In this document: piece after piece, positions 1 to 58,513 of the stretch
Position numbering within the stretch: position 1 is the stretch's first letter
How the letters are laid out: every line of letters starts with the position of its first letter
Source: Cyanophora paradoxa CCMP329
Lineage: Eukaryota; Plantae; Glaucophyta
Assembly: GCA_004431415.1 (NCBI GenBank)
Contig: QPMI01000010.1
Coordinates: forward strand, 1 to 64,000
Direction of reading: 5' to 3'
DNA length: 64,000 nucleotides
The notes under the pieces: generated by a model
The model's database searches: none
What the model was told of the DNA's origin: nothing
The model's input: the letters and a program-made list of their open reading frames with translations, nothing else
Translations under genes and position numbers: made by a program

Positions 1-3000
1 GGCGGAGGGGGTACGCTCGTGCGATCCTTGGTACAACAACGGGAATCTTCGGCGCGGCCTGATTGCAGGCGGTGCAAAGTACTACAGGGATCGGAAGGCG
101 TACGAAAGGGACATTGCAGAGCTGCAGAAAGATAACAAAACGATCGTTTACTCAGACGAGCAGGTGAGAATACTGGCAGAGGAGCTGAAGACAAGGGAGC
201 GGCAATTTAACGAAATGAGGACAGCGGCCGAGAAAAAGATAGCGGACGATTTTGAAAGAGGCGAGCGATAGAATTGAGAAATCCCTGGAGGCCGAGGAGA
301 AAGCCGAGATCCGGAAGAGAGAGGCCGATAGGATCGTGGAAAACGCGATAAGGGAGGCAAAGGAGCAGGCAAGGACCGAGCTGGAGAAACTGGACATGGA
401 AATAGCAAACAAGGTCAACATAGCAAACGAGGTCGAAGAGGGCACAAAGATGCTGGACGATGAGCGAAAGGCAGCGGAGGAGCAAGCCAGAAAAGCAAAG
501 GAGGATTTAAGGCAGCTCGAACTGCGAGAACAGGAGAGGCAGAAGGCAGAGGGGCTCGCATCCACCATACGATTCAACCTAGAGCAGCAAGTGAAAACGC
601 TGACGGCCGAGCTGCAGAGGATAGGGACGGCTGTGCCAAGGGGCACAATGGAGACGCAGACGACGCCAAGGCCCGATCCAAGGCCGGCCGCCGAGAGGCT
701 GCCCTTCGCGCGGCTGGGTAGGAGCGACCAGGTGGAAGAGCTCATTGGCCTCACGCTCGAGGATCAGAGGGCCCTCTTCGACGCGTTAGAGCAGCGGCGC
801 AGGGCGGACGAGGAGGCAGCTGCCAAGACAGAAGAGGAACGACTGAAGGCAATGCAAACTGCATCAGACGAGGAATTTGCACGGCTGGAGGAGCCGAAGG
901 TAGCGGAGCGTAAGCGACGACTGGAGACGTTCAGGGGGGCGCAGATGGATTTTTACCGCTCGGAGCTCAAAAGACTGAAAGAAGGAAATGCATCGGGGGA
1001 CAGGCTCCGCGCCATGGAAGAGAACATGCGCGACTTTAGCTACGTTATGGATCAGCTGACGGGAAGGGGTCAGAAAGACGCCGAAGAACTGAGGAGAAAG
1101 ATGGCCGATGAGAAGTGGAAAAACTTTGAGCGTCAGGCTGTTCAGAGGCCCATCAGCGATGCCATCTGGATAGCATACGGCGACGTGGAGGAGATGCACA
1201 GAGAACTGCGGACGGAAGCGAGCCTGTGGCGGGGAGCCCTCGAATGGTCACTGTACCGGATACAAAAGGGGGAGTTTTTGGCAGAGCTGCGAGCCAATCC
1301 GAAAACGGTGAGCGCGGGCGCACAGAGCGCGTACCTCTCCATGGTCGATTACGTGGGCAAGCTGAGCAAATTTTGGGAAATGCGAAGAGCCATCATTCCA
1401 GCGGAGGGGCTCGCGCAGTACGATGCCATGGTGCGCGATCTGGAGGCCTTCAAACGTGAGCACCCACCCGCCAAATACAAGATTCACATAGATACGACGG
1501 CATTCATGGGCGATCTAAGGAAGAGAGGAGACGAGGCCAAGAGTCAGATCGAGGAGCGCTACAGAAAGGCCCAAGCGGACAAGGAGTACGCAAACAGGGT
1601 GATCGAAGAGCGGAAGCAGCAAGCCAAGGAGAACGCGGCGAGACGCAACGCCGAGATAGAAGAGCAGAGGCGGAAGATCGCAGAGCGCAAGGCGGCAGAG
1701 GAAGAGGCAAGAAAGACCAAGGTAGAGACAGAGTACCAAGCATTGAAACGGGAGGCCAATCAACTGTTAAAAAGGAGGGGAAGGGCCTACGCCGACGAGG
1801 GCGCGGGCGTGGGCTCGGCCAGCCCGGACGACATCACCCTCGCGGAAAGGGACGACGTTTCCGTAGAGGAAATGCGCCCGGGCACGGCTCGCCTGCCCTC
1901 CGAGGGCGTATTTCAGACGCTCGACAGGCGCGTGATGGGCGACTCGGACGTTATTCTGCGCAACGCCCTCATGCCCTACGGCGACTGGAACCGCGCCACC
2001 GCCGACGCCCTTGCCGATTTCGACCTCGAGCGATTCACCACCAAAGAGCAGCGCGACGCCTTCCTGGGGCGCCCGAGGGCAAGGCGGCCCGGGGTGGCCA
2101 AGGAGGCCCTCAGCGCGAGACAACGACGGCATGTCTTTCGGGGCAGCCGATTTATTTCAGGGGGCGGCATCGACTTGGTGGGCGCCGGGCTCGGGGGTAC
2201 GGGCTCGCGGCCATGCGGCGGGCGGGCGCGGCGGCGGCGGGCCTTGGCTGGCGACGGCCGGCGGCCTGCTCTCGGCTACCAGGCGCTCTCGCAGGGCAAG
2301 ATAGGGGAGGCCGAGTTCTTCGATACGTTCCGCGATCAGATGATCATGACGGTCGGCTCCTTTGGCCTTCAGACGGGCATGTCGTCCGCCCTGAGCGCCC
2401 TCACGAAAATGAGGATCGGCACGGTGGGCGACTTGGCCTGTCCATCCTCGCGGGCGCCATCGCGCAGGTGATCGTGGATATCATCAACGGCGCAGCGCGG
2501 AAGAAATCGTGAAGAATTTTTCAAGTACCCCGTCGACTGGGCGACCGACACCATACAGTTCATCGCGGAGCTCTCGCAACAGATCTACGACTGGGGCGTC
2601 GAGACGTGGGGCGACGAGGCGAGCCAGCTGCGCAACCGAATTAATCGGCTGGAGGGCGAGCTGGGCTCCGGATTTTTGGGTGTGTACGACCCTCGGAGGC
2701 GCGCGAAATGGCCTCGCTCTTGGCCCAGGAGCTGCGGTTTAAACGAAATCAAGGAGCCGAAGGAGCTGCAGGCCTTCATTCGCGCGCTCGACAACAGCAT
2801 CAACGATTACCGTACCCCAAGGACCAGAAGACCCTGCTCGAAATCGATCGCTGCGACCGTGCTCTTCCTCTCCAGCTCACCGTTAAAATGCAGGAGGGCT
2901 TCGGGTCGACTTCGCTCGCCCTGAGTCGACTTATGCGCGACCTGAAGCAGATGATAAAGGAGGAGACCAAGGGGCGGAAGCGCGTCTTAATTGCCGTCTA

Positions 3001-4126
3001 CCAGGAGGGCCTCAACAGGATCAATCACATCGAAGCCCTAAGGCGCGAATTCGCTCGGCCATCCGTCACTCGGGCGTCTCGTCGAACGGAGGGGCGCAGG
3101 TGGCCCGCCTGGCGGACGCCAACTCGCGCCTCGAGATTCCCGGGACCTTCCGCATGCAGGATTGGTGGGAGGCCGAGGCCTTCAGGAATTACGGGGCCTT
3201 CATAGACAACGGGATCAATTCGCAGAGCCCCAAGGCAAACTGGCTGGTACCAAGGCCTACGTCGATAAATTGGTTGACAGGCTGCAGCACCATACACCAA
3301 GAAGATCGCCAAAGGCATCGAGTACTGGGCGCCCGAGCCAGGCCAGCCGTGTTTGCATCGCAGAACTACGAGTGGCACATGGCGCGGGGGCGAGCCAGGC
3401 CGTGAGCACCGTGGGCGTTGCCGTGCCGCAGCTGGCGACGGTGGCACACACGGGGGCGTATGCAGATCTCAGCGGGAGGCCGACGATACCCGTGATACCA
3501 ACAACGTGGGCGTGGGATAGCATCACGGGAAGCCGAGTACGTATCCCACGCAGACCACCAGCACACCATCTCTCAGATCAGCGACTGGACGGCCCCGGAC
3601 TTGACGAACATCTCCGTGATTGGGACAACGTAACGGGCAAGCCACTTACCTTCCCCCCTCTACACACAGTCACAATGTGTACTGGGATAATGTCATCGAC
3701 CGACCCACTTCCTTCCCACCTCTACGCACAGTCACACAGAGTACTCGCTCACCAGCCACGGCACAGAAACGTGAACATGGATGCGTACATAACGCACGGC
3801 ACGTCTTCCACTCCTACGCTGCGTACACGGAGTTTAACATCAATTCAACATACACGGTGACGTTCAACATTACATTCGGACAGGCGTACGACACTGGAGG
3901 CGGACTGGGGACCCCAGCAAACCAACGCCGGTTATTAACGTACCCCCTCGTTCGACATCAATCCCGGCGGCAGCACGGATGTCGATTTCTACGGGCCAAC
4001 GTCACGGCGGTGAGTCACACTGGCTTTACAGTTAAAGTGAGATTCCAACCCAGAATGACGGTCACGCCCACCCAAATTGTCCAGCTTTTTATTCATTGGA
4101 CCGCGATCGGCAAGCTGCTTATGTAA
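1..4126 (+). CDS. Giant coiled-coil protein ending in fibre-like repeats and a lectin/gp53-like C-terminal domain (frameshifted, 5' end outside the window)
   Basis: E/K/R/A-rich helical ORF 252-2471, with coding-like sequence continuing upstream and downstream across frameshifts. The joined 3' part reads LATVAHTGAYADLSGRP / WDSITG(K)P / WDNVTGKPLTFPP-THSH / WDNVIDRPTSFPP-THSH (phage tail-fibre-type repeats), then TVTFNITFGQAY...NVTAVSHTGFTVKV...IHWTAIGK. It may be more than one gene. Confidence 0.65.
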
Positions 4127-4150
4127 TCGATTTTCTGATGCAATCCAAAA

Positions 4151-5207
4151 ATGTCGGTCGCTGTCCTCTATTTACCTATGCTGCCAGCGTGAATCACAAG
4201 GGCGATCACACGATTAAGGAGACCACCCTCGGAAACCAGGCCACCGAGGCCCCTACAACGCCACGGCCGTCCCCTTTTCCGAGGCCGACCTCGTCCGCGT
4301 CGGCGAGCTGCGCTGCGACAAGATGCGCACGCGGGAGGCGGGTCGCCGTGCCGGGGCGCGTGAGGACGCAGAGGCTCACCGTCACGAACGGGGCCTGGGA
4401 CGGGAGCGGTACACCACGAATCAGGTGACCTTTAATGGGACTGTGAACGGGGAGGGGAATGCGGCTCTGTATGTGCAAGGAGGCGGAGCAAACGTGGTGG
4501 GGGGGCTTAGGGTGAGCGGGGCTTCAACTTGGCGGGCATCGTTACATTGGACGATAAGCTGCAAATTACCGGAACGTCACCGTACATAAATGGCGGTGGT
4601 TCAGCGTAGCTATAAAGTACAACGAAAACGATAGACTCCTCTGTGGGACTCTTGGCGTTGGTGTTACAGTACTCTATTTACCTCGGCAATCGAAGGCCCT
4701 ACTAATGGCCTAAGCATAGCAAACACTTCAATCGTTGATAGCGGAAGCGTCAGCGTCAGCTCTGGTCTATCCTTGAGAAACAACGGCACCGAACGACTGC
4801 TGTGCGGAACCGTCGGCGTTGGCATCACGGGTCGGCTCATCGTCTCGACGCTCACGGGCGATGGAAACCGAGCCGTTTATTCGGATGCTCAAGGATACCT
4901 GACAAACTCGTCGAGCGATAGCCGCCTGAAAGAAAATGTCGCGAGCATGTCGGCATTCTCCCTCTTCTGCTGCAGCTGAATCCCGTGTCGTTCACCTGGA
5001 AGAACACATCCTCGGGGGTTCGAAAACGGATTACGGTCTCATCGCACAGGAAGTCCAAGGCGTCTTCCCGAGTCTCGTTTTCGAGAACGCGGATGGATTT
5101 CTCGGGGTAAACTACGACAGGCTCATTTCCTGTCGTTGAAGGCAATTCAGGAACTTTCACAAGAAGTTCAAACTCTCAAAGACCAGGTAGCGGCACTGGC
5201 GAGCTGA
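4151..5207 (+). CDS. Fibre/spike protein with C-terminal intramolecular chaperone (Peptidase S74), frameshifted
   Basis: Joined frames give NSSSDSRLKENV...LNPVSFTWK...DYGLIAQEVQGVFPSLV...LGVNYDRLI...AIQELSQEVQTLKDQVAALAS*, the S74 signature followed by a coiled coil. Confidence 0.85.
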
Positions 5208-5227
5208 TCTGGAACAACTAGGAATAA

Positions 5228-7231
5228 CTACACCGCGAGTATCACAATTCGACCGTTGCCACCGTCGCTGAAAGACGAGCCACCGTTGCCGCCCCTACCA
5301 ATGCCTGCTGCGTAGTGAGCGTCTCCGCTATTTCCTGCCACCTGGCCGGACCCAGGATACACCGTAGCATCCGTCAAGTTTCCTATGTAGCTCGAGCCAC
5401 CGCCACCTCCAAACATTCTTGCTATTGGGTTCTCTGACACTCCGCTCCTGCTGGACCCAGAGCCTCCACCGAAGTAACCACCACCACCACCACCACCGAA
5501 CTGTAGCCGCTTGAATCAGGCCCAGTCTCTCCACCTTGGCGCAAAGTTCCCGGGTTGCTGGGCCTGGCCCTGAGGCCACAACACCGGCTCCGCCAGCGGT
5601 TTGGGTGCCTCCTTGAGCCGGTATCTCTCCGGTTACTCCAACCAACCCAGCCGCACCACCGTCAACCCCCCGCCTACTCCCCGCCGCCATTCGAATCACA
5701 TGTACCCCACCTCCGCCCTGCAACAACCAAGTCGGTCCCTGCAACGCGCTGAATTGCAGAACGACCACCACCGGCGCCGTTTTTGTACTCCGGATCGACG
5801 CTATGGCTCCAGCCCCTTCCACCACCTCCGTAGACGGTAGCAGTGGCAGTCCCCGATACACCCTTTGGGCCGCCGCATCCAACAACAAGGATGAGCGTCT
5901 CCCCCGAGGACACAGCCAATGTACCAACTACGCAAGCACCCGCGCCTCCACGGACCCCGTACCTGCGCGTTCTCCGCCTCACCCCCGGCCGCCCATACGA
6001 TGACACGCACAGCCACAGTCCCCGTTGGTACTACGAAAGTCTGGTCGGCCCCGGTGTAGGAGAATGTACCGAAAAGGGGCTGCTCGTGTCGCTGGCAAGG
6101 AACACGCCACCCCTGTAGATGTTGTAGGAGACGGTGACGCCCGTCACCGGCACCGACCACTCGAGCACAACAGGCTGTGCTGCCCCCGCCGCGGGGGTTG
6201 CAGTGAGCCCAGTGGGCGCCCCCGGGTCCGTGGTGACGTACGCCGCAATACTCTTCGGCCCTCCCTCCCGTGTTCGTCGCGGAGATCTGGTACTCGTACC
6301 CTGTACCCCAGACGGTGGTCGTGTCGCTGTAGGAGTTGGTCGCGGAGTCTGTGAGGTAGGCCCCGTCTCTGTAAATCTTGTATCCCGTCGCTCCCGTGGA
6401 CGCAGTCCAGCTGAGGCTGACAGGCTGCTGCTGGTCGTTGGGTGCTGATGCCGTCACGTTCGTGGGGCGTTTGGCATAGTCCAGACCAGGAGCGGATCGG
6501 ACTTGTCGTATTCGACACCGCCCACGATGCCGGCCACCTGGTAAGAGTATTCCGTGCCCCACGTAAGAGCAGTGCTATCGTCAATGTACGAGGTAGACAG
6601 GGCACTGCTCGCAAATCCGATTGCGTACCGTTCCTGTAAATTCGAATCGAGTCCGCGCCCTCCATGGCCACCCAGTTGATTGTGACGACTATGGCGGGTT
6701 TCGGGAAGCCCGAAGACGCGGGCCGCCCCCGGCAATAAAATCGCCGTAGGTCTGGGCCGTGGCGGTCGTGAGCGTGGTGTAGGCTTCGATCTGCGGGCTG
6801 AAGCCGCCTATGCCTTGGAAGAGAATGTAATTGCTCATGGCACCCTCGTGGGTGTAGAGAAGCGACTGTGCGTAGGTTGTGGGCGGGGCTTTGCCATCAG
6901 AGCCCGTGCTGCTGCTGCCCTGTTCGCGAACCGCCGCCACGCGGTAGAGTCGCTGGGCCCCAAACTAAAGGAGAGTCCGTGTAGGTGACGGTTGGCGCAT
7001 TCACCGTGGCCACGAGATCCAGGGGCCGTTGATGCTGGTCGCCCTGTACACCTTGTACTTGACGGCGTTGGTGACCGCGACCCAGTTCAGCTGAAAGCCG
7101 TACGTACTGTTCCCGTTGTTGAGCACGGAGCCCGATCGCACCTGGGGCCTGCCCACAGTCAGCGAGATCGGCTCCACGCCATACTGCGGAGCCTGCACCA
7201 CCTGCTTTTTCACGAATACGAAGCGGGGCAT
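5228..7231 (-). CDS. Fibronectin type III repeat plus glycine-rich domain protein (putative virion surface protein), frameshifted
   Basis: FN3-like segments (LNWVAVTNAVKYKVYR; VSLSWTASTGATGYKIYRDG...YSDTT...YEYQISATN), then TFSYTGADQTFVVP...VIVWAAGG...GGAGACVVGTLAVSSGETLILVVGCGG...GGGGSSYIG...GGNGRIVI*. Confidence 0.75.
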
Positions 7232-7267
7232 TTCCTCTACGATCCGAAAAAATATCTGCCCGGGTAA

Positions 7268-7940
7268 ATGACTTCCAACTGGTACCAGACCCTCAGCGGC
7301 TCACTTGACGTTGGCAACAACACCAAGGATTTCGCACGCATACCCTCCGGCAGTTACGTCGACGTCTTTCTGCAGAATCCCGTCGTGATTCAGGTCGTTC
7401 AGAACGCCTACGCCACGCCAAGATTTATTCCTACCAGCTCTTCTTCGACCCTCTGAGCCTCAGCGCAGAGGTTATCGAGCTGCTGCACGAATCAGGACTC
7501 GTGAAAAGGTGCACCTGCCACGGCCACTGCCAACGTCTTGCGCTGTCTCGAGGTCAAGTTCAGGGAGACGGGTACGGCCCACCGTGAACGGTACCCCAGT
7601 TCTTCGAATCTTCCGGGTACGGGAACTTACCAGATGAGGGGTACGCTCAAGGGCGACGTGCTCTTCACGAAATTCAATCCAAGTCCCGCGACCCTGGGGC
7701 CCTCTACACGGGCGGCAACCCACGCGGCTCGACTCTACCCCGCTTCCCCTTCACCTTTTTCAGGTTCCAGGTCTTCCCCCTCTCCTACGCCGCCGACCAG
7801 CCCCACTTCAGCACGGGCGCCAGCCTCTGCGCGGAGCTGCGTGAGTGCTCGATTTCCTACGCGTACGGCACCGACGCTGACTCTGTGCCTGGGCCCGCGT
7901 CATGAACATCGGTGGCGACATCACCCTCTTTCACGGATAA
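7268..7940 (+). CDS. Unknown protein, paralog A of a tandem pair (candidate virion structural protein), frameshifted
   Basis: Starts MTSNWYQTLSGSLD, 36 bp from the divergent gene. Shares ordered motifs with the next gene: LQNPVVIQV, ELLHESGLVKR, LRCLEVKF, VLFTKF. Confidence 0.6.
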
Positions 7941-7963
7941 TCTTTCTCATTTGAGGTCGCAAA

Positions 7964-8793
7964 ATGCCGACCACCTCGGCCACCATCGTGAAGACCGTGT
8001 CTGCCGGCTCGATCGTCCCGATTTCTACGGCAACGCTGGGAACGTGGCCAACGCAGGGACGGACAAGGTGGAGTGGGACGGAAACTACGCCACCCCGCTC
8101 ACCGTGAGGGTCCAGAATCCCGTCATGTTGCGCGTCACCTCCAACGATTTCGAGAATCCCGCCTCCTGCTCCGTGTACGTGTACTTTGACATCGACTCGG
8201 GCGTGAGCGCGGATGAGGCGGAGGCGCTCTGGCTCTCGGGCCTCCTGAAAAAGATAGAGCCCTCTGTGCCTGATCGGCCCGCCATTCGCGTGCTCGAACT
8301 CAAGTTCACCGCTAACACCGCCCTCACTCGCAAATTCGGGAATGGTGCGAATCCGAACATCAAAACGCATTTAGATGGCGCCCTCATCGATGCCACACAC
8401 AAGACCACGCAGGCCGTTCCCTTTGAGATGTACAACCTCTGGAAGATGACCGCAAAGGAGATGATGACGAATGCCACCACGGGCGGCGCCTCGGGTACCG
8501 ATTATTCATACGGCGCCTCGAATCCCCGTACCCAGGTCTGGCCCCGGCTCCTCTTCACGAAATTCACTTTCAAATTGTACAACAACATCGCCGGAATGCC
8601 TACCTCTGGAATGGTCGTGGGCTCTACCCTCATGGCCGAACTAATTGAGGCAGAGGCGGACTACACGACTGCGACTACCAACTCGACAGCGCCAGGCGCC
8701 GGAGCCGAAGTTTACGTGGCCTGGAAACGGTCGGTCGCGAGTACGACACCAAGATTCACACCACTAGCGTCTAGACTGGCTAAGCTGCATTAG
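7964..8793 (+). CDS. Unknown beta-rich protein of ~275 aa, paralog B (candidate capsid or other structural protein)
   Basis: ATG at 7964 (MPTTSATIVKTVSAGS) joins ORF 7912-8793 via one frameshift. Motifs VQNPVMLRV, EALWLSGLLKK, IRVLELKF and LLFTKF match paralog A. The structural role is inferred from gene context only. Confidence 0.65.
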
Positions 8794-9126
8794 CACCTGT
8801 GTCGCCTCCATCATCTCCCGAATCTCCTCGCTCTTCTCCTGTAAATTGGCGTACCCCTCCTCTTCTTGCGAATCTCCGACATTGATGCCCAGCGCAGGTT
8901 CTCCCTCCTGTAGTCCAGCGGTTGCCGTTGATGTGTTCCACGTAGCGTCCACGTGGCGACTTCCCGAGGATCAGCTGGGAGAGGTAGTGCTTGCGCCCTC
9001 CAAACGTCTTGCTCACCCTGTCCCTGTCCACTCTCCAGGGAAACTCCAAGGCACTCGGGGTACGTCCGAGTTGACCAGGACGTTGTAGGCGACGTCTTGC
9101 GAGTCGGTGCACCGGAGCAGGGCCAT
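8780..9126 (-). CDS. HNH (HNH_3-type) endonuclease, frameshifted
   Basis: Joined frames give YLSQLILGKSPRGRYVEHINGN(P)LDYRRENLRW, matching the H-x-NG-x-x-x-D-x-R-x-x-NLR motif of viral HNH nucleases. Confidence 0.75.
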
Positions 9127-9150
9127 TTTGCCCTAGGTTCAGAAAAACCT

Positions 9151-9230
9151 GGGACTTGGGACTTGGGACTTGGGACTTGGGACTTGGGACTTGGGACTTG
9201 GGACTTGGGACTTGGGACTTGGGACTTGGG
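9151..9230 (+). repeat. (GGGACTT)11 telomere-like / G-quadruplex array, copy 1
   Basis: 11 perfect heptamers plus GGG, followed by AAGAGTTGAAACCCAGGTCCCGG. Confidence 0.97.
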
Positions 9231-9312
9231 AAGAGTTGAAACCCAGGTCCCGGCCCAGACTTTCTCCAGGATCAGAAATTTGTCAGACAAGTCAGGTGAG
9301 TTTTTCTACCGA

Positions 9313-9388
9313 CTTTTTTACTCCTACCACTCCTCATACTCTTTTTTACTCGTAGTCTTTTTACTCGTAGTCTTTTTTACTCGTATCC
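9313..9388 (+). repeat. 16-bp iteron-like tandem repeat CTTTTTTACTCGTAGT (three copies plus one degenerate)
   Basis: Copies at 9341, 9357 and 9373 (the third differs at its last two bases), with a variant at 9313. Confidence 0.9.
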
Positions 9389-9671
9389 CATCTCGTACCC
9401 TCCTTCTCTCGACATCTCACACGAAAACTCCTACCCCTCTTCACATCCGTTTTCGGTTGCATACTCTCGTGAGCTTTCATGTCCAGTATCATGCTACAAG
9501 TCGTACACCAGTTCAGACTCTACCTCGCTTGAAATCTCACCTGGAATGTCACCAGAAACGTCATATGCAGATTTCCGTACCCCTCTACATGTCTGCCCGG
9601 TGGTTAGGGACTTGGCGCGGCAAACTCTCAGATCCAGAGAGATTCTGGCCCAGACCCTGAGTCTAACTCTT

Positions 9672-9722
9672 CCCAAGTCCCAAGTCCCAAGTCCCAAGTC
9701 CCAAGTCCCAAGTCCAAGTCCC
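9672..9722 (-). repeat. (GGGACTT)~7 array, copy 2, inverted relative to copy 1
   Basis: AAGTCCC repeats on the + strand, one unit 1 bp short. The minus strand continues GGGAAGAGTTAGACTCAGGGTCTGG. Confidence 0.95.
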
Positions 9723-9792
9723 AGGATCGCGCCAAGTCGTAACTGAATAGTCGGCCAATTTTTACAAGTATGTACAATGGAATGACGCAATA

Positions 9793-10859
9793 CTATTTAC
9801 AGCATCTCAAAGTCAGAGTCATCGTCATCGGAAACCAACTCAATGAGGCCCTCGGGCGCCGACTTAAGGGAATGCGGGGAAGGGACTGCGCTGCCTGCAC
9901 CAAGTCCTGCCGCTCGCGCTCGCGCTGCGCCGCCAAGGCCGCTGCCGCCTCTGCCTCGCGCTGCTGCTGAGCCTCGATGCGCGCCTTGAGCTCGGCCGCC
10001 TCCTTCTGCTTGCGCTCGGCGATCCGCGCCTTGTTGATCTGGTACTGGACAAGGCGCTCGTGGCGCCGCTTGCGCTCCAACTCCTTGCGGAGCTCGTTGC
10101 AGAGGACGCGCTTCTCAATGGTCTTGACGTGCTGAGTCAGGCGCTCGCTGTAGTGTGACGTCACGCGAGAACGGGCAATGCCGGCGCCGAGCTTCAAGTC
10201 CTTCTCGTGTGCCTTGGCGGGGTCCTTGACGCGCTCGGAGTTGTCGGTGAATGACGTAGTCTCCATGAACTTCTTCTTGACGATTGACTTGGTCTTGATA
10301 ATGCGGCGCTTGCGAGTCGGGTTTTCGTTGTCGCCTTCAGAGTCAGAAGACGACTCAGAGTCGTATGGAATCGGCACGTCAAAGTCGATGAAGTCGTTGA
10401 TGTCAGACTCGACGTCAGAGGCCTCGGACTTGGCGTCATCGGCGGGCTCGGGGCGGGCTCGGCGACGGGCTGAGGGGCAGATGACGACGATGACGGAGGG
10501 GGTAATTCGTGAAGACTTGAGGGGGTAGGCCCAGGCGAGCGTCTCGGCAGCAGACTCGGCGAAAAGCTTGGGGTCGCCCAGCCGTTGGCGGTCTTGACCC
10601 AGCCGGGGACGGGGGGCACGTCGACGGGGGGCTCGGGCTTGGGTTGCTTGGACTTGGATTTCTTGGCCTTGGACGTGAAGGCGGACTTGGGGAGAAGTTG
10701 CACTTCGGGCCAGTGGCGCGTAAGATGGCATAATTGTAGATGTACCCAGAGCGTCGGCGCGCTGCTCCATCTCAGGGGTAGCCCTTGAGTGCCACCGGAG
10801 TTAGCCCACGTTGCTTGGACAAAGGCGAAGTCCTCGGCAAGCTCAGCGGGAATCGACAT
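9793..10859 (-). CDS. Unknown viral-region protein with acidic tract and coiled coil (frameshifted)
   Basis: ORF 10194-10859 (MSIPAELAEDF...) and ORF 9793-10770 (acidic DVESDINDFIDFD tract, basic patch RKRRIIK, coiled coil) appear to be one gene. Confidence 0.6.
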
Positions 10860-11174
10860 CTGCGCAAAGGGAAAGAAATCAGCAAAGGCAAAACGTGAGG
10901 TGACTGTGAGGGCGGACTTGTGAAAATTCGGAGAGGCGGGTTTCCTTGGCTGAGAGAAGGCGGCGAACCCGTTTCAAGAGTGAGCCAAAATGGCGGCGGA
11001 CCGCGGTTTTGTGGGCGATTTTTTTCGCGGTCTAGTTCGCAACGGAAAACGTTGCCAACTGGCCTGAAAAAAGCCAAATTTAGCGTTGGACCGAAGGCAG
11101 AAAAAGGGAGCCGGCCTGACGGAAATCGCCCGAGTGCGTCCGCCGAAGGTCGAGTCTCGGGCCGGGGTACACCC

Positions 11175-11663
11175 TCAGGGCCCCCCCTGGCCCTCACCCT
11201 GGTAGTGCCCTCTCAAAGGATTTTCGAAGCCGTACAATTCTTGGTAAGTCTCGTAATCCGGGCTGTACCCCCTCACAATCTGCGGGAGCCCCATTGAAAG
11301 CCTCCGTCTATCCTCTCTCAATTCCCTGCGGAAAAGTCTACGGTCTTCTCGAGCTTCGCGTGTCACGCCAGCTGGGCGTGGTCTATGATTGTTAGGGTTG
11401 TCGTAGCCTGGTCCCACCAGCCTCACGAAATTTTCGCGTATGGCCTCGGGGAGGCTCTGGAAACGGCTCGTCGCGTGGAACTCAATCCATTCATTGAATC
11501 GACGCGGATATTGACGGATGACTTCAAGCACGCCCTGTGTGTTGGGCTCTGGTGTTACGTCGGGGATGTCATGTCCCGTGAGGTGCCAACGCCAGAACTC
11601 GCGCAACCTCTCGAATGCCATATTCAACTCAAAGGGAAAATCGTAATAGAGATTGCCTGACAT
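11175..11663 (-). CDS. Unknown 162-aa protein
   Basis: Intact ORF from ATG 11663 (MSGNLYYDFPFELNMAFERLREFW...), with normal protein composition, just downstream of array 3. Confidence 0.6.
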   Translation of the reverse strand: MSGNLYYDFPFELNMAFERLREFWRWHLTGHDIPDVTPEPNTQGVLEVIRQYPRRFNEWIEFHATSRFQSLPEAIRENFVRLVGPGYDNPNNHRPRPAGVTREAREDRRLFRRELREDRRRLSMGLPQIVRGYSPDYETYQELYGFENPLRGHYQGEGQGGP

Positions 11664-11721
11664 TTTTCTCCCCGTCCGAAAATTTCCCCGCTTTTGGGTC
11701 CAGACTCTGATTCCAACTCTT

Positions 11722-11773
11722 CCCAAGTCCCAAGTCCCAAGTCCCAAGTCCCAAGTCCCAAGTCCCAAGTCCC
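11722..11773 (-). repeat. (GGGACTT)7 array, copy 3
   Basis: Seven AAGTCCC units on the + strand. The minus strand continues GGGAAGAGTTGGAATCAGAGTCTGG. Confidence 0.97.
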
Positions 11774-11907
11774 AGGTCACATTTTTCTCCCATTTTGACT
11801 CGAGATTCTGACCAAGTCCAAATCCGGGCCCGGGATTCGAACCCTCGTTTTCGGTCGATTTCACGCGTGAAAACGGCACTTTTCGGCCTTTTCCGATTTT
11901 TCCTTTC

Positions 11908-12018
11908 TCGCGATCGCAGAAATGCCCCCGATCTCGAAATCGCGATCGAAAAGGGTCGCGATCGGGAGAAAGTCGCGATCACCAGGGTCGCGATCGGGTC
12001 GCGATCGCCGCGATCGCC
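11908..12018. repeat. Cluster of TCGCGATCG-type motifs near the putative element end
   Basis: About seven (T)CGCGATC(G) copies in ~110 bp. Confidence 0.8.
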
Positions 12019-12554
12019 AGCCTCGGAGGGGGTACCCCCACAGCTGTTGCGGCGGTTATAAGAACCTCCGCAATCCAAGCGTCACTTCCGAGTCTCGAGC
12101 TCTCGGAGTTGACTTTTCGCGTTTGGCCCATTGATGGCCCTCGTATATAGTACTGCAGCTGCCGCAGTACTAGTGCACTGCGGCGGCCGCCGGCCGCGGG
12201 CAGCGCGCGCACGTGCACGCCGTGACGCGCAGACTCTGAGACTTGAGATCTAGACGCCGAGTCGTCGCCGACACTGTGACAGACTCTGAGACTTGCGCAT
12301 GCGTATGCTGTACATGAACATGTGTCGCCGAGCTCGAGTTCGGCCCGCGCCGGCGGCCGCCAGCGCCGGCGGCCGGCCCCGGCGGCCCGTCATCGAATTC
12401 GAATTAATATTCGAAGGGGTACGTACGTATACAGCGCAGCCGGCGCGGGTATACGTAATCGTAGCCCTCGGATCAAATTTGGCGAGCTGCTTCTATGCGT
12501 AGCGAAGGATGCGGCACGTAGCACTTAGCTAGCAGCTTTGGACAGCCCCCGAAG

Positions 12555-15500
12555 ATGGCGGACTTCGATCCAGAACTCGGCCCGACATACAAGCTGGTGC
12601 TTGGGCCGCTTATCTTCGTGCTCACGTGGTGCGAGGCGAGGCTGACGCTCGCTGGACTCGCCGCGCGGCGCCCGCGCCGCCTGGGCACCCGCGCGAAGAG
12701 CGACGTGGCTCGCACGCCGCACCCGCTCCCCCTGACCTCTCCGGCGCCAGGCTCCTCATCACGGCGAACAGAGTGCCGTTTCTGCCCATCGGAAGACCAG
12801 CCGGGGCCCTGCTGGGTGCGCCCTGCGGTATGCGCGGTTCACGCGCGCGGCTCGAGCTCCCCTGAGGGAAGCGCGGCGCCGTTCCGTCGGCAGGCGCGCT
12901 GCTCATGGTCGTCTGCACGATCATATCCGTCGAAGAAGCGTACGCGGCGGTCGACGGGTGCGCACACCGCCTTAGGATGCCCTCGCCGTTCTCCATCCAT
13001 CTCCGCTGCCGACGCCGGCGACGCCGCCGCGCCGCGACCGCGCCCGCAGGAACACTATCGCTCTGCTCTTCGGAATGATGGCGCGCAAAAGCAGCAGCAC
13101 CAGAAGCCCCCCGCTTTCTCCCCGCCTTCGCCCCATCGAATTCGAATTCGAATCCGAATTCGATCGCAGGTGATCACGGCGCGGCTGGAGAAGGAGGGTC
13201 TCTTCGACTACTTAGCACACCACATGCTCCGCGGCTGTTCGAACGGGTGGACGCTCCTGTGGCGCATCTCCCTCGCCGCCGCCTTCCTTGGTACCCCCCC
13301 GCAGCCGCCCATGTACCCCTTCCCTCACGGCCCCCTCAGCCGCCTTCCTCACCAACGACACCGTAAGCGCGTCTGCGTGTACCCCCCTCCCCTCGCGCCC
13401 CGCCGACCGGTACCCGGAACCAGACTTGTGTCTTCATGACCGCTATGGTGGTTGCGGGTACCCCCCTCCCACTCCCCCTCCGCTGCCCGGCCCGCTCCGC
13501 CTGACCTACCTCCCTCGGTTTGCTCGCACCCCCCGCAGCCTGCAAAATGGCCAAGGTTCTTCCTAGTAGGACGATGCCGTACCCCGGCTCCTGCCTGAGG
13601 GTACCCCCGCAGGTCCCCATGGGCCCTTTCCTCATCTGCCTCGCTACCTCCGCCAACATCGGATCCGCCTGCACGGTCCGCGCGCTGCGTACCCCCCGCG
13701 CCCTTCTCCCCCTGACCCCCCCGTCCGCAGCCCACCGGCAATCCCCAGAACATGTCCGCCCGCCCGCCCGCCTCGCCCCCCGACCCGAATCCGCGTACCC
13801 CCGATCGATTCAATCCCCCCGTTTCCCCGCCCAGGATCATCCATTCCTTCTCTAAACTTCCCTTTCTCGGATTCGTATCCCGGATCGGCCTCGCTACCCT
13901 CCTCGGCCTCTCCGTCCGCGTGCCCCTGACCGCGGATTTGATGAACCCCGCGCCGATTCGCCCCCTCCCCCCCCAGGTCAACCTCGGTGTCCTTTTCCTC
14001 ACCTACCGGTACCCCCCCTCCCCTCCCCCCCCTTCCTCTCTTCTCCTGAGCTTCGAGGCCGGCAGGGAGGTGCTTTTGAGGCCCTTCGCCGCCGGGGTAC
14101 GTGAGCTTTTTTCGGGGGGGGAGGGGGGGGGGTTACACCCACGGCCGCTCTCGGGTCCGCCTCGATTATCGGTCGCGCAGCCGGGGGGCGGCCACGGGGA
14201 GCCCCGGCGCGGGCGCGGCGGCAAGCTGCTCGACGAGGCGCGTACCCCCTCCCTGTTCGTAGAACCGTACCCCCTAAACGACAGCGCAGAACGGAATGTT
14301 TGAGTATCGGACGCACGGAACGGAGTCTGGAGCCGGGGCGGCGGCGGCGGCGGCGGGCGGGGTAGAGGGTACCCCCCGCATCGACGTCGAGGCCCCGGAG
14401 GGGGTCGCGGGGCCGGCAGGGCCCCCGGGGGGTAGGGGCGCCGAGCTGGAGGAGAGGTGGGGCGGGGGCCTCGCCCCGCCGGCCTTGCCCGCCCCCTCAG
14501 CCTCGCCGGCGGGCACGCCTGTACCCCCCGCGCTCTCGACCCTCGAGCTGCTGCGCGCCACGCCGCGGCCCGTCCTCCTGCGCCGCTTCGCCATCGTCCT
14601 CGTGCGCCGTACCCCTCTCTTTCTCATTCCCCCCGTTCAAGCTCCGGGGGGACGCCAGATCATCCTGGGGGTAGTGATTGCGTTCCTGGCTGGCGCGCAC
14701 CTCTCGTGGACCGCCATCGCGGGGGGTACGCGCGCCCTTCCCGGCCTGTACCCCCCCTTTGGCCTGAGCTCCCGTACCCCCAGCTTGGGCCCTCATCGTC
14801 CTGGATTTTCGGGACCCCGCCCCCCTCTTCGAGCTCGTGGACTGGCCCGTACCCCCCTCCTCATCCGCCCTCCCCCGAACATCTCTTACCCGCCCACAGG
14901 TCCCTTCTCATGTTCTTCTGCGGACTCTTTATCGTCGTGCGCACCCATACCCCCTCCCCCGCTCCCCCCCTCCCCCCGCCAACTTAGCTCTGGGTACAGG
15001 TTCGCGGCTTCAGCGCGACGGGTATCCCCGTAGCCCTCTGGGACGACCTCCTACCCCTCGTCTCCCTCAGGTCCGCTTCGTACCCCCTTCTAGTGCCTCC
15101 GATAATTCTGTACACCCGCAGCACCGCGCGGGGCCTTTTCGTCTATACCCTCATCCTCCTCGTGGTCCGAAGAGTCTACCTTCGCCTCGTTCCTTCGCAC
15201 CGTACCCCCCAGCCTCACCTCCGCTTTCACTTTCGACGCAGGCGTCGAATGTCGTATCGAACGTCCCGACGGTCCTCATCGTAGCACCCCTCATGTCCTC
15301 CTTCCAGGCGCCTCCGTACCCCCCTACCCCTCGATTCTTCCCCTGTACCCCCCTCGTGCTCACTTCGCTTCCCTCCCCGCAGGCGTACGCCACGCGCGGG
15401 TGGTACCAGATGGCGTTCATCACGGTACCCGGCGGCGCCCCGGCTTGGCTCGGCCGGCTCTAGACTCACCTGTACCCCGCCGTAGACGGTCGCCGGGAAC

Positions 15501-15837
15501 TTTACTCTAATCGGTGCGGCGAGGCGCCTCCCCGGGGGGAGAGGGGGGGGGGGGGGGGAGTGCCTCCGCCGCAAGCCGTCCTCGCGCCCGCCCGCACCCG
15601 TACCCCCGTCTCACTTGCACTTACCCCCCTGCAGGCTCCGTGGCGAACATCATCGTCGCCCAGCGCGCCAAGGACCACTACGTCCTGGGCTTCTGGTGCC
15701 CCCGTACCCCCTTCTCCCTTCCCCTACCCCCCCCCCTAACTCCCCCCCCTCCCCGAAGGGAGTACCTGCGTGTGGGGCTCCCCTCGACGGCCCTCGCGCT
15801 GCTCCTCGGCGTCCTGGCCATCTCCCTCGTCACGTAG
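12555..15837 (+). CDS. ArsB/NhaD (CitMHS) family permease, Lsi2 silicon-efflux-transporter-like; multi-exon
   Basis: Exons encode VPFLPIGRPAGALLG, EEAYAAVD, LLFGMM, AFLTNDT, PFLICLATSANIGSACT, LLMFFCGLFIVV, RGFSATGIPVALWD, SNVVSNVPTVL, TVAGNFTLIG-SVANIIV and YLRVGLPST, colinear with plant Lsi2. Confidence 0.9.
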
Positions 15838-16529
15838 TACCCCCTTCTCCATCTCCCCTTGGGGTTGTACCCACACGCGCGCACGTTAATCGATGTAAAC
15901 GATACGAAATTATCGATTAATGGAATACCCCGGCCGGCGCCGCGGGCGCCGGGGCCCTCTGGACCGCCGCGGAGCTCGCGGCGCGGGGCGTCCTTGCAAT
16001 CGCATTCTCCCTGGTTGCGTAGGGCCCGGCGCGGCGTCGACCGAGAGCATGTTCTCGTCCTCTTTGGTTGCATGCGGCGCGCACCGCGCCTCACTGAGTC
16101 ACGCGCGCGACGGCTGCGACCGGTGCCAAGCGCTAGCGCAGGAGCACCGGTGCCGTCACTTCGCCCCCTCCACTTCTAGCCTACGTATACCTCTTATATA
16201 GCTAGCTCTTCTATTCTGGCCTCTTCTTCTATCCTACCTAGCTCGAGAACAGCTCGCGCGCCTGGCCAGCCCCGGAGACGGCTCGACGTCGACCAAAAGC
16301 ATGTTCTCGTCCTCACATCTCAAGGGCGCGGGGCGCGGCGCCGTATACGTAAACTTGAAATGCACATGGGCGCCGGGTTAAGCTTTATTCTTAAAGATTC
16401 AGTCGTATATATAATAAACCCAGGATCAGCTTTGATCAGCTCTCGAATCAACGAGCCCTGCTGCAGCGCTAGCTTTGGTCAGCCGCTGAGCCTGCAGCTT
16501 TCGCCGAGTCGACGTCGAATTCCGAGTAC

Positions 16530-20504: not shown

Positions 20505-21289
20505 CGAGCCGCGGCCGCCCGAAACGCCCCGCCGCCGCCGCCGCTTCTAACTAGTAAGTCTCAACGGACTCGGTCCGACGTCGACGCGCGCGAAAGGTCC
20601 CAAGCTAAAGGCCTCATGATCTCGGTCCGAAGGCTGCCGCAGTTCTGCAAAGTGCAACTAGTAACTAGTAGCTAGGCCATATAGGCGGATACTATAGCTA
20701 GTATGTCGCCGATCGGCGATGTCGTCGGCGCCGACTCCGCCGAGTCGACGGGCCACGGGCCACGGCGGCCGCGGGGGTATACGTACGATTATGATCATGA
20801 CGTGACGCGGGCCGGGCCCGGCCGGCCGCGGTCGCGGATCCGGAAATTCGACCGGAATCGGCGCGGATTGCAAATCTGCAATTAACGTTCCGAGTAAGTT
20901 CAACAATTAAGTACGCCTCATGATCAGCCTCCATGCACGTCGTCTTGTTGTTCCTCTTCCTCTCCGCTTGTTAGTGATGTCGGTCCCTCCGATAACAGTA
21001 GTACAATGAACTATAGTACCTTTTCACCACAGTACCAGGCCAGGCTGGGAAATTGCAACTCTGCGGCCGACGCTTACCTTTTGCTGCCAAATTTGACATT
21101 TGCGACCTGCGAACTACGGCTGGTCTGAGCTTGGAGAAGCAAAAAAATGCCACTGGAAACCTTGCCCAATGTTGTAATTGTCTCTTTCATTTGTTGAGTA
21201 GTAAAAAAACAAGCGGTTCCAGCCCGCGTAGTACTGTGGTTTCGTGTACCCATGGGACCCTTTCGCTGGCGGAAACCGCCAATCGTTTA

Positions 21290-21455
21290 CTACAGCGAGT
21301 CGAGTCAAAAAGCTTCAGTCTGAAACTCGGGCGATTTGGTGATTGGACAATTAAACTTAAACCGGCCGGGTACGTTAAAATTGCTCACTACGGCGAGTCG
21401 AGTCAAAAAGCCCCAGTCGGAAACTCGAGCGATTTCGTGATTGGACAATTTAAAT
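21290..21455 (+). repeat. ~66-bp imperfect direct repeat in an AT-richer island
   Basis: ctac(a/g)gcgagtcgagtcaaaaagc...aaactcg(g/a)gcgattt(g/c)gtgattggacaatt at ~21290 and ~21388. Confidence 0.85.
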
Positions 21456-22543
21456 CCATGGAGTTATATATATATATAGCTCACAGCTCGTTTTTTTTAC
21501 CGGTCGACCCAAGTTCACCCACTGGGCCAACACGGCTGAAAACCGGTTAAAATGAAATCGCTCTTCGGCTATTGGGTTGGCTGGGACCGGTCTACCACTA
21601 ATCTACCCGATAGCTTGCCGGCTACACGCTGACGTAGGCGCATGCGCGCACAGCGCTAGCCGGCTCGAAGCGGGTGAAAAGTTATCGCGATCGCCGGCTG
21701 CCCTTGCCCATACAACGGGCATGTCGAGTCGATTGGGAAAAATACGAGCTGTGCTGTACGGTCTGTACCCAGCTATCAAGCGGGGGGGGTGCGGGGGGGG
21801 CGGAGCCCCCCCTGCTTGTTTTAATGGTATTTCTAGCTCTAGCTCTTCTTCGTGTCTGTCATCTTCTGTCTCTAGCTTTAGATCTGCTCGGTCTGGTTTA
21901 CTTCTCGTCTAGATCTCTTCTCGATCTGTCTCGAACTCTGTGTCTTTCCTTGTTTATTTTCGATTTTGGCTCTTTGTCTTGTCTTTCTTCGTACTTTTGT
22001 CTTAGTTCCTTTGCTTTTTGTCCCTGTGCCCCCTGGGCAGCCCCCGCAGTGCTGGTGTCTAGAGACTGTGGCCGGTAATTCACCAAAAAAAAAAGTACGT
22101 ATCGGCCCGGTTCGGCCGGCGCGCGGCCCGGCGGCCGCGGGCCGCGGCCCGCGGGCCGGCGCCGGCCCGGCCGGCGGGCCGGCGGGCCGGCGGCCGGGCG
22201 GCCCGGCGGCCGGGCGGCCCGGCGTCGCCGGCGCCAGCCCGGCCCGGCGGCGGCGATCATGATCATATCATTCTGCAGCTGCAATGCCCGTACGTGCTGG
22301 CACGGTGCTGCGAGATCAAGACACTCCTGCCGATCCGCACCACTCCGGCCCCCGCGGCCGCGTCTTCGGCCACCCCCCGGCCCCGCGGCCGGCTTCGGCC
22401 TCCCCCCCGGTCTCGGCCACCCCCTCTGCCCCACGCCAGCCCCCCAACCCGCTCGACCCCTCGCCGCCGCGGCCGCCCGCCTCGCCCTCGCTCTCCCCGC
22501 CTCCGAATCCTGCGCGAGCCGCCCCCCCCCCCCCCCCCCCACC

Positions 22544-57800: not shown

Positions 57801-58513
57801 TAGATTACGCTGCAAAGCGTGATCAGTTTCTCTCCGCCGGAGCGCGCTGCCGGGGCCGCGCCCTTACCTCCGGGGTACAGCCTGCGCACGGCCGCCCACA
57901 GTACCCCCACTTTCTTTTCGGCTTCGCGTTAGTTGCAGCTTCGCGGAGCTGCAGCCATCGCCAGCATCACAGACGTAGCTAGTGGAGTTGGGTGAACGAA
58001 TGGCGTTCCACTGGCCTGTCGACGGTGCGTGATCGCAAGAGCGTGCGGTTGGGGGCGCGCGGGGCCGCCTTTGGCAATCCAGCTCCCGCGCCTCGCCTGC
58101 GCTCAGCGCCGCGCACTGCTGACTGGCGCAGCTAGTTAGCGCCAGCCAGCTGCAGCCTTTCCGAACAAGCTTTCCATAGGCGCCTAGTTAGGCAACCATC
58201 CCTTCCTTTAAACCTTCCGAATAGCTTCATAGGCACTTCCCTTAACACATTAGCGTCACAGCGCCTGAGATTACTCGGCGCTCGCCGCGCGGCTGGTGCC
58301 CGGCGTAGTTAGCTTAGACAGGTAGCTCTCCGTAGTTGTTCTTGTCTGAATCTCGTAGTACCTTCAAGGTTTATCGTGTGTCGCGTCGCATCCCACACTC
58401 GCACGCCTGAGCTCGCTCGGCGCTCCGCCGCGTGGCTTGGCCCGGCGTCGCACTTCCGTAGAGTAGCTCGCGGCGGGCTAGACGGGCTGCACGCACATAA
58501 GAGCGTCACGCAT

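What the first reader, a model, noticed from the sequence alone, without database searches (positions are those of the whole stretch)
9148..11776. Three telomere-like, G-quadruplex-capable (GGGACTT)n modules inside the viral element
Seen: three arrays (11, ~7 and 7 units), each in the same cassette CCT-(GGGACTT)n-GGGAAGAGTT followed by a similar ~15-bp tail. The conserved flanks argue for a functional module rather than a slippage microsatellite. The motif occurs nowhere in the host part of the window. Known: GGG tracts with short loops form G4s, and HHV-6 and Marek's disease virus use telomeric repeats to integrate. Inference: these could be protein-binding, replication, packaging or telomere-mimic sites of a protist virus.
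Basis: partly seen in the sequence, partly recalled or inferred. Interest (0 to 1): 0.8.

Follow-up and report, generated by a model that had tools for sequence, protein, structure and literature searches.

The report
G-rich repeat cassettes in algal virus
Three copies of a conserved 7-base-repeat cassette sit near one end of a multi-copy virus-like element in the alga Cyanophora paradoxa; the repeat differs from the telomere repeat reported for this alga, and the cassettes likely act as protein-binding control sites for the neighbouring viral genes.

Summary
Three (GGGACTT)n arrays (11, 7, 7 units) share an invariant core, CCT-(unit)n-GGGAAGAGTT, plus a one-sided tail only 58-69% alike; no tandem copy lies in 52 kb of host DNA. 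The host is Cyanophora paradoxa. The element has neighbouring-gene models on at least 56 contigs, a sharp right end at 12149 and end contigs about 48-79x deeper than the host flank. A gene model from another copy translates array 2 with 7 intact units and both flanks. The telomere-mimic idea fails: the reported host telomere is TTAGGG and the insertion is interstitial. G4 potential is borderline (G4Hunter about 1.2) and the host has more G4 motifs per kb. Best reading (0.4): a directional multimer of a protein-binding site acting as promoter/enhancer of the non-structural end genes; arrays 1 and 2 face each other across 427 bp. A replication origin is the main rival (0.25): arrays 1+2 form an inverted repeat beside two weakly predicted T7-SSB-like OB-fold genes. 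The virus family (Polinton-like or mriyavirus-like) is undecided, since no capsid gene lies in the window. New variant of a known kind; function untested.

The parts
9148..9297 (+). Cassette M1: CCT, 11 x GGGACTT, GGGAAGAGTT, then ~60-nt tail ending in CAG|GTGAGT (donor-like)
   Evidence: AGGTGAGT occurs once in the element, at 9294
9300..9600 (.). Non-coding spacer between the facing cassettes; G-poor on the + strand (12% G, 7% in 9301-9450), with a second repeat family TTTTTACTC(GTA) x4
9607..9725 (-). Cassette M2: 7 units (one lacking a G in this assembly), core and ~58-nt tail; inverted against M1, direct against M3; bracketed by an 11-bp inverted repeat (9609/9728)
   Evidence: present with 7 whole units in another copy (P0077)
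11690..11776 (-). Cassette M3: 7 units, core, 25-nt tail; 59 bp from the last GGG to the ATG of ORF-A; flanked on both sides by GGGAGAAAAATGT; 373 bp inside the element end
8811..9126 (-). Frameshifted HNH-endonuclease-like gene; ATG 21 nt outside M1
   Evidence: three frames; the HINGN..D.R..NL motif was recognised from memory; Pfam, PHROG and PDB scans of the pieces gave no hit
9797..10859 (-). ORF-B, ~355 aa in intact copies, frameshifted here; basic/coiled-coil, variable N-terminus, ends in a SUMO-interacting-like motif; stop 72 bp from M2
10860..11170 (-). Candidate host-type intron: GTACCCC just after the ORF-A stop, pyrimidine tract plus GCAG directly before the ORF-B ATG
   Evidence: 1 of 252 ATGs in the element has such an acceptor directly before it; not shown by RNA
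11175..11663 (-). ORF-A, 162 aa, unknown; first ORF downstream of M3
   Evidence: no family hit above noise; exact sequence not in the protein collection
7268..8771 (+). Two tandem paralogous genes (7268-7937, 7964-8771), predicted OB fold, closest to T7 gp2.5/Enc34 single-strand binding proteins (weak)
11908..12015 (.). Subterminal cluster of palindromic TCGCGATC-type repeats (6-7 copies)
12140..12149 (+). Right end of the element (...CTCGTATATA); contigs of other copies leave the window sequence after 12149
   Evidence: tables 2, 7, 8
3387..5207 (+). Broken phage-like fibre genes: one with a weak H-type lectin end, one with an S74 chaperone end
   Evidence: Pfam H_lectin E 0.045, Peptidase_S74 E 4e-4; PHROG tail-fibre families to E 4e-10

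Best explanation
The three arrays are copies of one directional, non-coding cassette of a multi-copy virus-like element, and they likely work as multimerised binding sites for a DNA-binding protein that drive or gate transcription of the element's non-structural end genes. Shown: the cassette anatomy, its place at the end module, its presence in another copy, and an invariant core among diverged tails. Inferred: the array binds a host or viral factor as double-stranded DNA (3 units = 21 bp, about two helical turns), the one-sided tail is the core promoter and start region, M3 drives ORF-A and (through a host-type intron) ORF-B, M2 points the same way towards the HNH-like gene, and M1 faces M2 so that it would give an antisense transcript and set up a face-to-face on/off control. 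G4 folding would be a side property, not the code.
For: Unit and both boundaries are identical in all three cassettes while the tails differ at 31-42% of columns, which points to selection or conversion. Conservation is one-sided, as in an upstream-array/core-promoter design. M3 ends 59 bp before the ATG of the first end-module ORF; M2 starts 72 bp after the ORF-B stop and is co-oriented with all three end-module genes; M1's outer edge is 21 nt from the HNH-like ATG. The structural-side genes have short intergenic gaps with no array. The ORF-B ATG is 1 of 252 ATGs in the element with an acceptor-like sequence directly before it, with a host-type GTACCCC donor 311 nt upstream, which fits nuclear Pol II transcription. 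M2 with both flanks is in another copy and a diverged copy keeps the M3 boundary (table 7).
Against: No transcript, start site or binding protein was shown. M1 points away from the HNH-like gene and its + strand transcript would code for nothing long. M2 lies about 545 bp from the HNH-like ATG with M1 in between. ORF-A has no homolog or family evidence. The splice-site observations are post hoc, GTACCCC occurs 16 times in the element, and the M1 donor-like site is rare in the host (1 in 52 kb). The inverted M1/M2 pair with a skewed spacer fits an origin at least as naturally.
Confidence: 0.4

Rival explanations
1. Replication origin or genome-processing site. M1 and M2 form an inverted pair of iteron-like arrays around an A/T-skewed spacer with its own short repeats; M3 is the subterminal partner. 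A helicase or the element's OB-fold proteins would load there; the HNH-like nuclease next door might nick for replication or packaging.
For: M1-M2 folds into a long hairpin (-121 kcal/mol, z = -14). Spacer repeats and skew. Two predicted T7-SSB-like genes and an HNH-like gene lie directly beside it. M3 is 373 bp from the end. Of 156 complete Glaucocystophyceae PLVs, 40 have HNH_3, 37 S74 and 40 a D5-type helicase domain (PMC12220804 Table S6 row, columns read by eye), so this family may use a primase-helicase that needs a cis origin; PMC11296320 proposes PLV inverted repeats as origins (passages).
Against: The z-score is driven by the arrays themselves. No replication gene is in the window. 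The OB-fold call is weak (Z 4.2, rmsd 4.0, 114 aligned; Foldseek E 1.6e-3) and such proteins are usually not sequence-specific (own knowledge). That this element is the 40-member family is a match of counts only.
Confidence: 0.25
2. Recombination sites: M2 and M3 are direct repeats bracketing a swappable end module (ORF-A + ORF-B), and M1 allows inversion of the spacer or of the 2.6-kb block.
For: ORF-B N-termini fall into several types among 49 stored models while the C-terminal part is conserved. A >300-bp direct repeat in the TIR and behind the end module is described for Gezel-14T (PMC11296320 passages).
Against: ORF-B stays within 1-3 gene numbers of the OB genes on the contigs compared. 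M1 and M2 tails have diverged by a third, which frequent exchange would erase. No recombinase is in the window.
Confidence: 0.12
3. Neutral relic: a slippage array captured once and duplicated with its flanks, kept uniform by slippage and gene conversion among many copies.
For: Unit numbers vary (11, 7, 7). GGGACTT runs arise by themselves elsewhere: 2 unrelated IMG/VR contigs carry short runs without the GGGAAGAGTT core (L001, a bacteriophage; L002).
Against: 13 non-repeated core bases and the unit are invariant while the tails are 58-69% alike; small viral genomes rarely keep three such blocks (own knowledge).
Confidence: 0.1
4. G-quadruplex switch: the arrays act through four-stranded folding, bound by the viral OB-fold pair, pausing replication or transcription.
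For: 12, 7 and 8 GGG tracts with 4-nt loops; alone, M1 folds as three G4s (-25.9 kcal/mol) in ViennaRNA. POT1, Cdc13 and Teb1 chains are among the OB-fold matches (Z 2.7-3.7).
Against: G4Hunter 1.18-1.25, weaker than TTAGGG (1.5); host DNA has more G4 motifs per kb. With G4 allowed, the M1-M2 duplex still dominates (one G4 on the top strand, none on the bottom). Those OB matches are tied with generic OB folds.
Confidence: 0.08
5. Telomere mimic used for integration into or protection by host telomeres, as in HHV-6 and Marek's disease virus.
For: G-rich short tandem unit; M3 is subterminal.
Against: Telomere unit listed for C. paradoxa is TTAGGG, and Glaucocystis telomerase makes TTAGGG. This copy is followed by 52 kb of host genes, and the shown flanks of other copies are not telomeric.
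Confidence: 0.04

Closest known systems
Endogenous Polinton-like viruses of Cyanophora paradoxa (366 MCP loci in PMC10120064 Table S1/S4; 156 complete Glaucocystophyceae PLVs in PMC12220804 Table S6)
   Same: Host, many copies, lower GC than the host (58.5% vs 66.1%), sharp end, S74 fibre, HNH-like gene, and a fibre with a weak H-lectin end like the PTR-PTR-H_lectin protein noted for a C. paradoxa PLV.
   Different: Capsid, packaging ATPase, integrase and the second end are outside the window. No passage seen describes such arrays or a pair of OB-fold genes.
Mriyaviruses (Gamadviridae; Pleurochrysis endemic viruses, Phaglo-G)
   Same: Gamadviruses conserve an SSB resembling T7 gp2.5 (PDB 1je5; PMC11253617), the same top match as here. 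[quoted passage not shown]
   Different: None of the 12 mriyavirus core genes was seen in the window; two paralogs here; the fold match is weak.
Repeat-array cis elements of DNA viruses: SV40 21-bp GC-box repeats, EBV family of repeats, herpesvirus a-sequence DR2, baculovirus hr (all recalled, no call)
   Same: Tandem short G-rich or iterated sites serving as enhancer, origin helper or processing site, often in several or inverted copies.
   Different: No sequence relation; here a 7-bp unit with a fixed one-sided tail, in a small algal integrating virus.
HHV-6 and Marek's disease virus telomeric repeats (recalled)
   Same: G-rich tandem arrays near a viral genome end.
   Different: Those copy the host telomere unit and lead to telomeric integration; neither holds here.
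Gezel-14T (PgVV) end module with a direct repeat in the TIR and behind the module (PMC11296320)
   Same: Direct repeats bracketing an end module, with a homing-type nuclease nearby.
   Different: That repeat is >300 bp and the module holds a recombinase and primase-helicase; here the bracketed ORFs are unknown proteins.

Membership tests
Polinton-like virus | Double jelly-roll major capsid protein, penton and A32-like packaging ATPase | not testable with these tools
   The left part of the element is outside the window and no genome is held; short motif scans of the visible part found none.
Polinton-like virus | Terminal inverted repeats and target-site duplication | not testable with these tools
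   Only the right end (12149) is visible.
Polinton-like virus | Integrated, multi-copy, sharp boundary, GC below host | tested here: met
Polinton-like virus | Accessory phage-like fibres (S74, PTR/H-lectin) and HNH nuclease as listed for glaucophyte PLVs | tested here: inconclusive
   S74 E 4e-4 (below Pfam cut-off) and PHROG E 4e-10; H_lectin E 0.045; HNH by eye only. These genes are not exclusive to PLVs.
Mriyavirus (Gamadviridae) | T7 gp2.5-like OB-fold SSB | tested here: inconclusive
   Model pLDDT 64.6, pTM 0.69; best matches 1je5 Z 4.2, 5odk Z 4.0; BFVD prob 0.99 but E 1.6e-3; no sequence-level PDB hit.
Mriyavirus (Gamadviridae) | Core genes MCP, ATPase, VLTF2, VLTF3, RuvC, HUH | not testable with these tools
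   Would lie left of the window; none recognised in 1-12149.
Herpesvirus-type telomeric repeat array | Unit equals the host telomere repeat | tested here: not met
   GGGACTT against TTAGGG listed for C. paradoxa (in silico entry).
Herpesvirus-type telomeric repeat array | Integration into host telomeres | tested here: not met
   Interstitial copy; non-telomeric flanks in the loose ends shown (86 further loose ends were not displayed).
G-quadruplex-forming sequence | Four or more GGG tracts with loops of 1-7 nt | tested here: met
   All three arrays match; 3 of the 6 such motifs in the element.
G-quadruplex-forming sequence | Folds in vitro or in vivo | not testable with these tools
   G4Hunter 1.18-1.25; competing duplex favoured in prediction.
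Foldback/TIR transposon bounded by the arrays (M1-M2 or M1-M3) | Target-site duplication outside the arms and a transposase | tested here: not met
   Outer flanks differ; enclosed ORFs have no transposase hit and travel with the element's other genes.
Host dispersed microsatellite | Arrays common in host DNA without fixed flanks | tested here: not met
   0 tandem matches in 52 kb of host; fixed flanks. Tested only on this window.
Pol II promoter/enhancer cassette | Transcription start in or beside the cassette; activity depends on the array | not testable with these tools
   Only contig-level runs are served, which cannot show starts or strand.

The most novel reading that the evidence does not exclude
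The element carries its own private telomere-like control system: G-rich heptamer arrays that open into single strands or G4s and are bound by the element's two OB-fold paralogs, with the face-to-face M1/M2 pair acting as the switch between latency and excision/replication. It would be the first such array-plus-OB-pair system in a small integrating virus of algae.
Probability: 0.1. Interest if true: 0.8.

Novelty: new variant of a known kind. Interest (0 to 1): 0.42.

Why it matters
How integrated Polinton-like and mriyavirus-like elements are silenced, woken and replicated is largely unknown, and almost no cis-acting sequences are mapped for them beyond short giant-virus promoter motifs. This cassette is a concrete, conserved, easily mutated candidate in a cultured alga that holds dozens of copies, so promoter, origin and G4 models can be told apart directly. 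Repeat arrays as viral control sites are themselves well known, and the telomere link that made the finding look striking does not hold.

Tried and rejected
No whole genome is held, so no genome-wide map of arrays was possible. Collection scans: the cassette pattern gave 0 hits in viral contigs and 0 in metagenome contigs; array-only patterns gave 1 contig each, both without the core; relatives of the OB genes were not found in viral contigs or metagenome contigs. A search for longer homologs of the OB gene found none. The single-sequence fold was useless (pLDDT 29.5). The Atlas gave no answer. No Rfam family fits (1 chance-level hit); sigma-70 and terminator scans were at chance level. Expression: no RNA holder is on record; run X15 (RNA by guess) held 0.27 of the words of 7200-13400 and, laid on 11790-13400, gave only a 34-bp end match and a paralogous host contig; this is not counted for or against. 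Depth over the arrays themselves was not measured, so their number of copies rests on one protein model (1 of 110 stored proteins) and one loose end. A mirusvirus reading (two triplex paralogs) was dropped after the model gave an OB-like fold; that is not a formal exclusion. A coding role for the arrays was rejected: a 7-nt period, no long ORF through them, and the one model that translates M2 does so in a grafted last exon. Mimiviral-type WWWWWTGW motifs occur 6 times in the element, 3 of them beside M1 and M3, against 32 in the host; not pursued. Earlier scan notes: none found. Literature: the two-unit motif occurs in 1 unrelated paper; G-quadruplex with virophage and polinton, 1 unrelated paper; searches listed nothing on such arrays; subscription journals are mostly not held and one mirusvirus paper could not be opened.
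Full report
1. Observation. All 22 matches to a two-unit pattern with up to 2 mismatches fall in them, against 0.44 expected; the 52 kb of host DNA hold 2 single heptamers. The core CCT-(GGGACTT)n-GGGAAGAGTT is identical in all three. The next 25 nt are 15-18 of 26 columns alike between pairs (3, 3 and 0 of 2000 shuffles of the first 23 nt score as high), and M1/M2 stay alike for about 60 nt (40 of 60 columns; 0 of 2000 shuffles). The outer flanks are less alike. So the cassette is directional, old enough for its tails to have diverged by a third or more, and yet its core is unchanged.

2. Host and element. The two genes at 7268-8771 have close homologs named as Cyanophora paradoxa proteins in EukProt; ORF-B (10859-9797) has 27 clusters with 54 member sequences, all 27 rows from EukProt. 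Among the contig names seen, 40 carry the paired genes, 49 carry ORF-B and 33 carry both; one search names ORF-B models on 4 of the other 7. The block with the arrays is therefore part of the element, not an insertion in this copy. 14 of 24 listed runs hold at least half of the words of 7200-13400. Laying contigs of 4 runs on 11790-13400 shows depth falling after about 12150 and contigs of all 4 runs leaving the window sequence after 12149 with other flanks. Single end contigs have depths of 4005, 5461 and 1202 against 50.6, 91.1 and 25.1 for the host flank in the same runs, a ratio of about 79, 60 and 48; the tool warns that depth is no copy number, so this is rough. M3 lies 373 bp inside that end. 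The element part has 58.5% GC against 66.1% and carries broken phage-like fibre genes (S74, weak H-lectin, fibronectin III). Most ORFs are frameshifted where other copies are not, so many breaks are probably read errors.

3. Are the arrays in other copies? One of 110 stored protein models, P0077 from another contig, ends in a grafted exon that reads [30 protein letters not shown]. This is the translation of M2 with both flanks and 7 whole units; the window gives the first half in one frame and the second half in the next, switching at its missing base. P0077 also reads through a break that the window has in the first paired gene, so it is a different copy. In run X4 a diverged contig keeps the CCCAGG boundary of M3 with other letters behind it. 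M1 was not seen in another copy, and depth over the arrays was not measured.

4. Telomere and G4 ideas. PMC3622300 (passages and one supplement hit) lists TTAGGG for C. paradoxa in silico and shows TTAGGG synthesis by Glaucocystis telomerase. The unit here differs, the copy is interstitial and the flanks shown for other copies are not telomeric. The arrays meet the G4 pattern and fold as G4s when taken alone, but score 1.18-1.25 on G4Hunter, and the host has 62 such motifs (1.2 per kb) against 6 (0.49 per kb) in the element. Because M1 is inverted against M2, a single strand is predicted to pair them instead: -121 kcal/mol, and with G4 allowed one G4 remains on the top strand and none on the bottom.

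5. Neighbours. All three end-module genes are on the minus strand. M3 ends 59 bp before the ATG of ORF-A; M2 begins 72 bp after the ORF-B stop and points to an HNH-like gene whose ATG (9126) is 21 nt outside M1 (the HNH label is recalled, the pieces gave no family hit). ORF-B is preceded by an acceptor-like sequence (1 of 252 ATGs in the element) with a GTACCCC donor-like site just after the ORF-A stop; M1's tail ends in CAG|GTGAGT. Between M1 and M2 lies a G-poor spacer with four TTTACTC repeats. The paired genes, folded on a 13-sequence alignment (pLDDT 64.6, pTM 0.69), match OB folds: T7 gp2.5 Z 4.2, Enc34 SSB Z 4.0, none at Z 5 or more; BFVD best E 1.6e-3 with phage SSB-type rows; PDB Foldseek best E 0.06. 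This is consistent but weak.

6. Mechanism. Shown: a directional cassette with an invariant core, three copies at the non-structural end of a multi-copy element. Inferred: it is bound by a protein as a multimer of sites. I put transcription control first (0.4) because of the one-sided tail, the positions relative to ATGs and stops, and the host-type splice signals, with M1/M2 as a possible face-to-face control. A replication origin or processing site comes second (0.25) because of the inverted pair, the skewed spacer and the SSB-like and HNH-like neighbours; the two roles can coexist, as in SV40 or EBV (recalled). Recombination sites (0.12), a neutral relic (0.1), a G4 switch (0.08) and telomere mimicry (0.04) follow.

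7. What is known. PMC10120064 (no main-text hit; supplement rows) counts 366 major capsid loci in C. paradoxa in two groups (272 and 94). PMC12220804 (passages and supplement rows) has 156 complete Glaucocystophyceae PLVs, 40 with HNH_3 and 37 with S74, and one PTR-PTR-H_lectin fibre. PMC11253617 (passages) gives a T7-like SSB as a gamadvirus gene, and bioRxiv 2025.04.19.649669 (passages) reports mriyavirus-related regions in a Glaucocystophyceae assembly. The element is thus very likely among catalogued endogenous viruses, but its family cannot be fixed from this window. PMC11296320, PMC8547959 and bioRxiv 2022.07.28.501842, all seen as passages, describe TIRs, end modules and short AT-rich promoter motifs, not G-rich heptamer arrays. 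PMC12344493 (passages) reports methylation of repeats and viral genes in this alga; PMC6704402 (passages) gives short, frequent introns; bioRxiv 2026.06.19.733378 had no hit for my terms. Searches listed no paper on such arrays.

8. Verdict. A real, conserved, element-specific cis cassette; not a host telomere mimic; G4 role unproven; function untested. New variant of a known kind, interest 0.42.

Noticed in passing
window 7268-8771: Tandem pair of paralogous genes (23-30% identical) with a weakly predicted T7-gp2.5-like OB fold; outside C. paradoxa only three environmental homologs (P0008, P0034, P0035) were found.
   Followed up: partly
window 9797-9850 (-): ORF-B ends in I[ED]LVSD[DG]D in 46 of 49 stored models, which looks like a SUMO-interacting motif (recalled), and carries a basic RKRRIIK stretch; its N-terminus comes in several types.
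   Followed up: partly
window 10860-11170 (-): Candidate host-type spliceosomal intron between ORF-A and ORF-B in a virus-like element.
   Followed up: partly
window 12140-12149 and 9349-9397: The hexamer CTCGTA at the element end also occurs four times within 50 bp in the M1-M2 spacer (7 + strand copies in the element); may be chance.
   Followed up: no
window 12116-12149: Run X15 (RNA by guess) has a 2658-nt contig at depth 490 that starts with the last 34 bases of the element end and continues in other DNA.
   Followed up: no
window 12120-13400: In X1 and X4 one contig runs from the junction through the host flank, and no empty-site joint was listed; contigs drop rare variants, so this proves nothing about heterozygosity.
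   Followed up: no
window 12555-16500: Host gene with a weak citrate-transporter hit (Pfam CitMHS E 7e-4) and many short introns starting GTACCCC, about 400 bp from the insertion.
   Followed up: no
window 21000-22000, 27800-29000, 53000-55000, 57000-58000: Further low-GC islands (49-56%) in the host part, one with a 114-bp tandem repeat at 27814-28141; possibly other mobile elements.
   Followed up: no
L001:5900-6070: An unrelated bacteriophage contig carries an 8-unit GGGACTT run and several inverted fragments between terminase- and portal-like genes (labels by eye).
   Followed up: no
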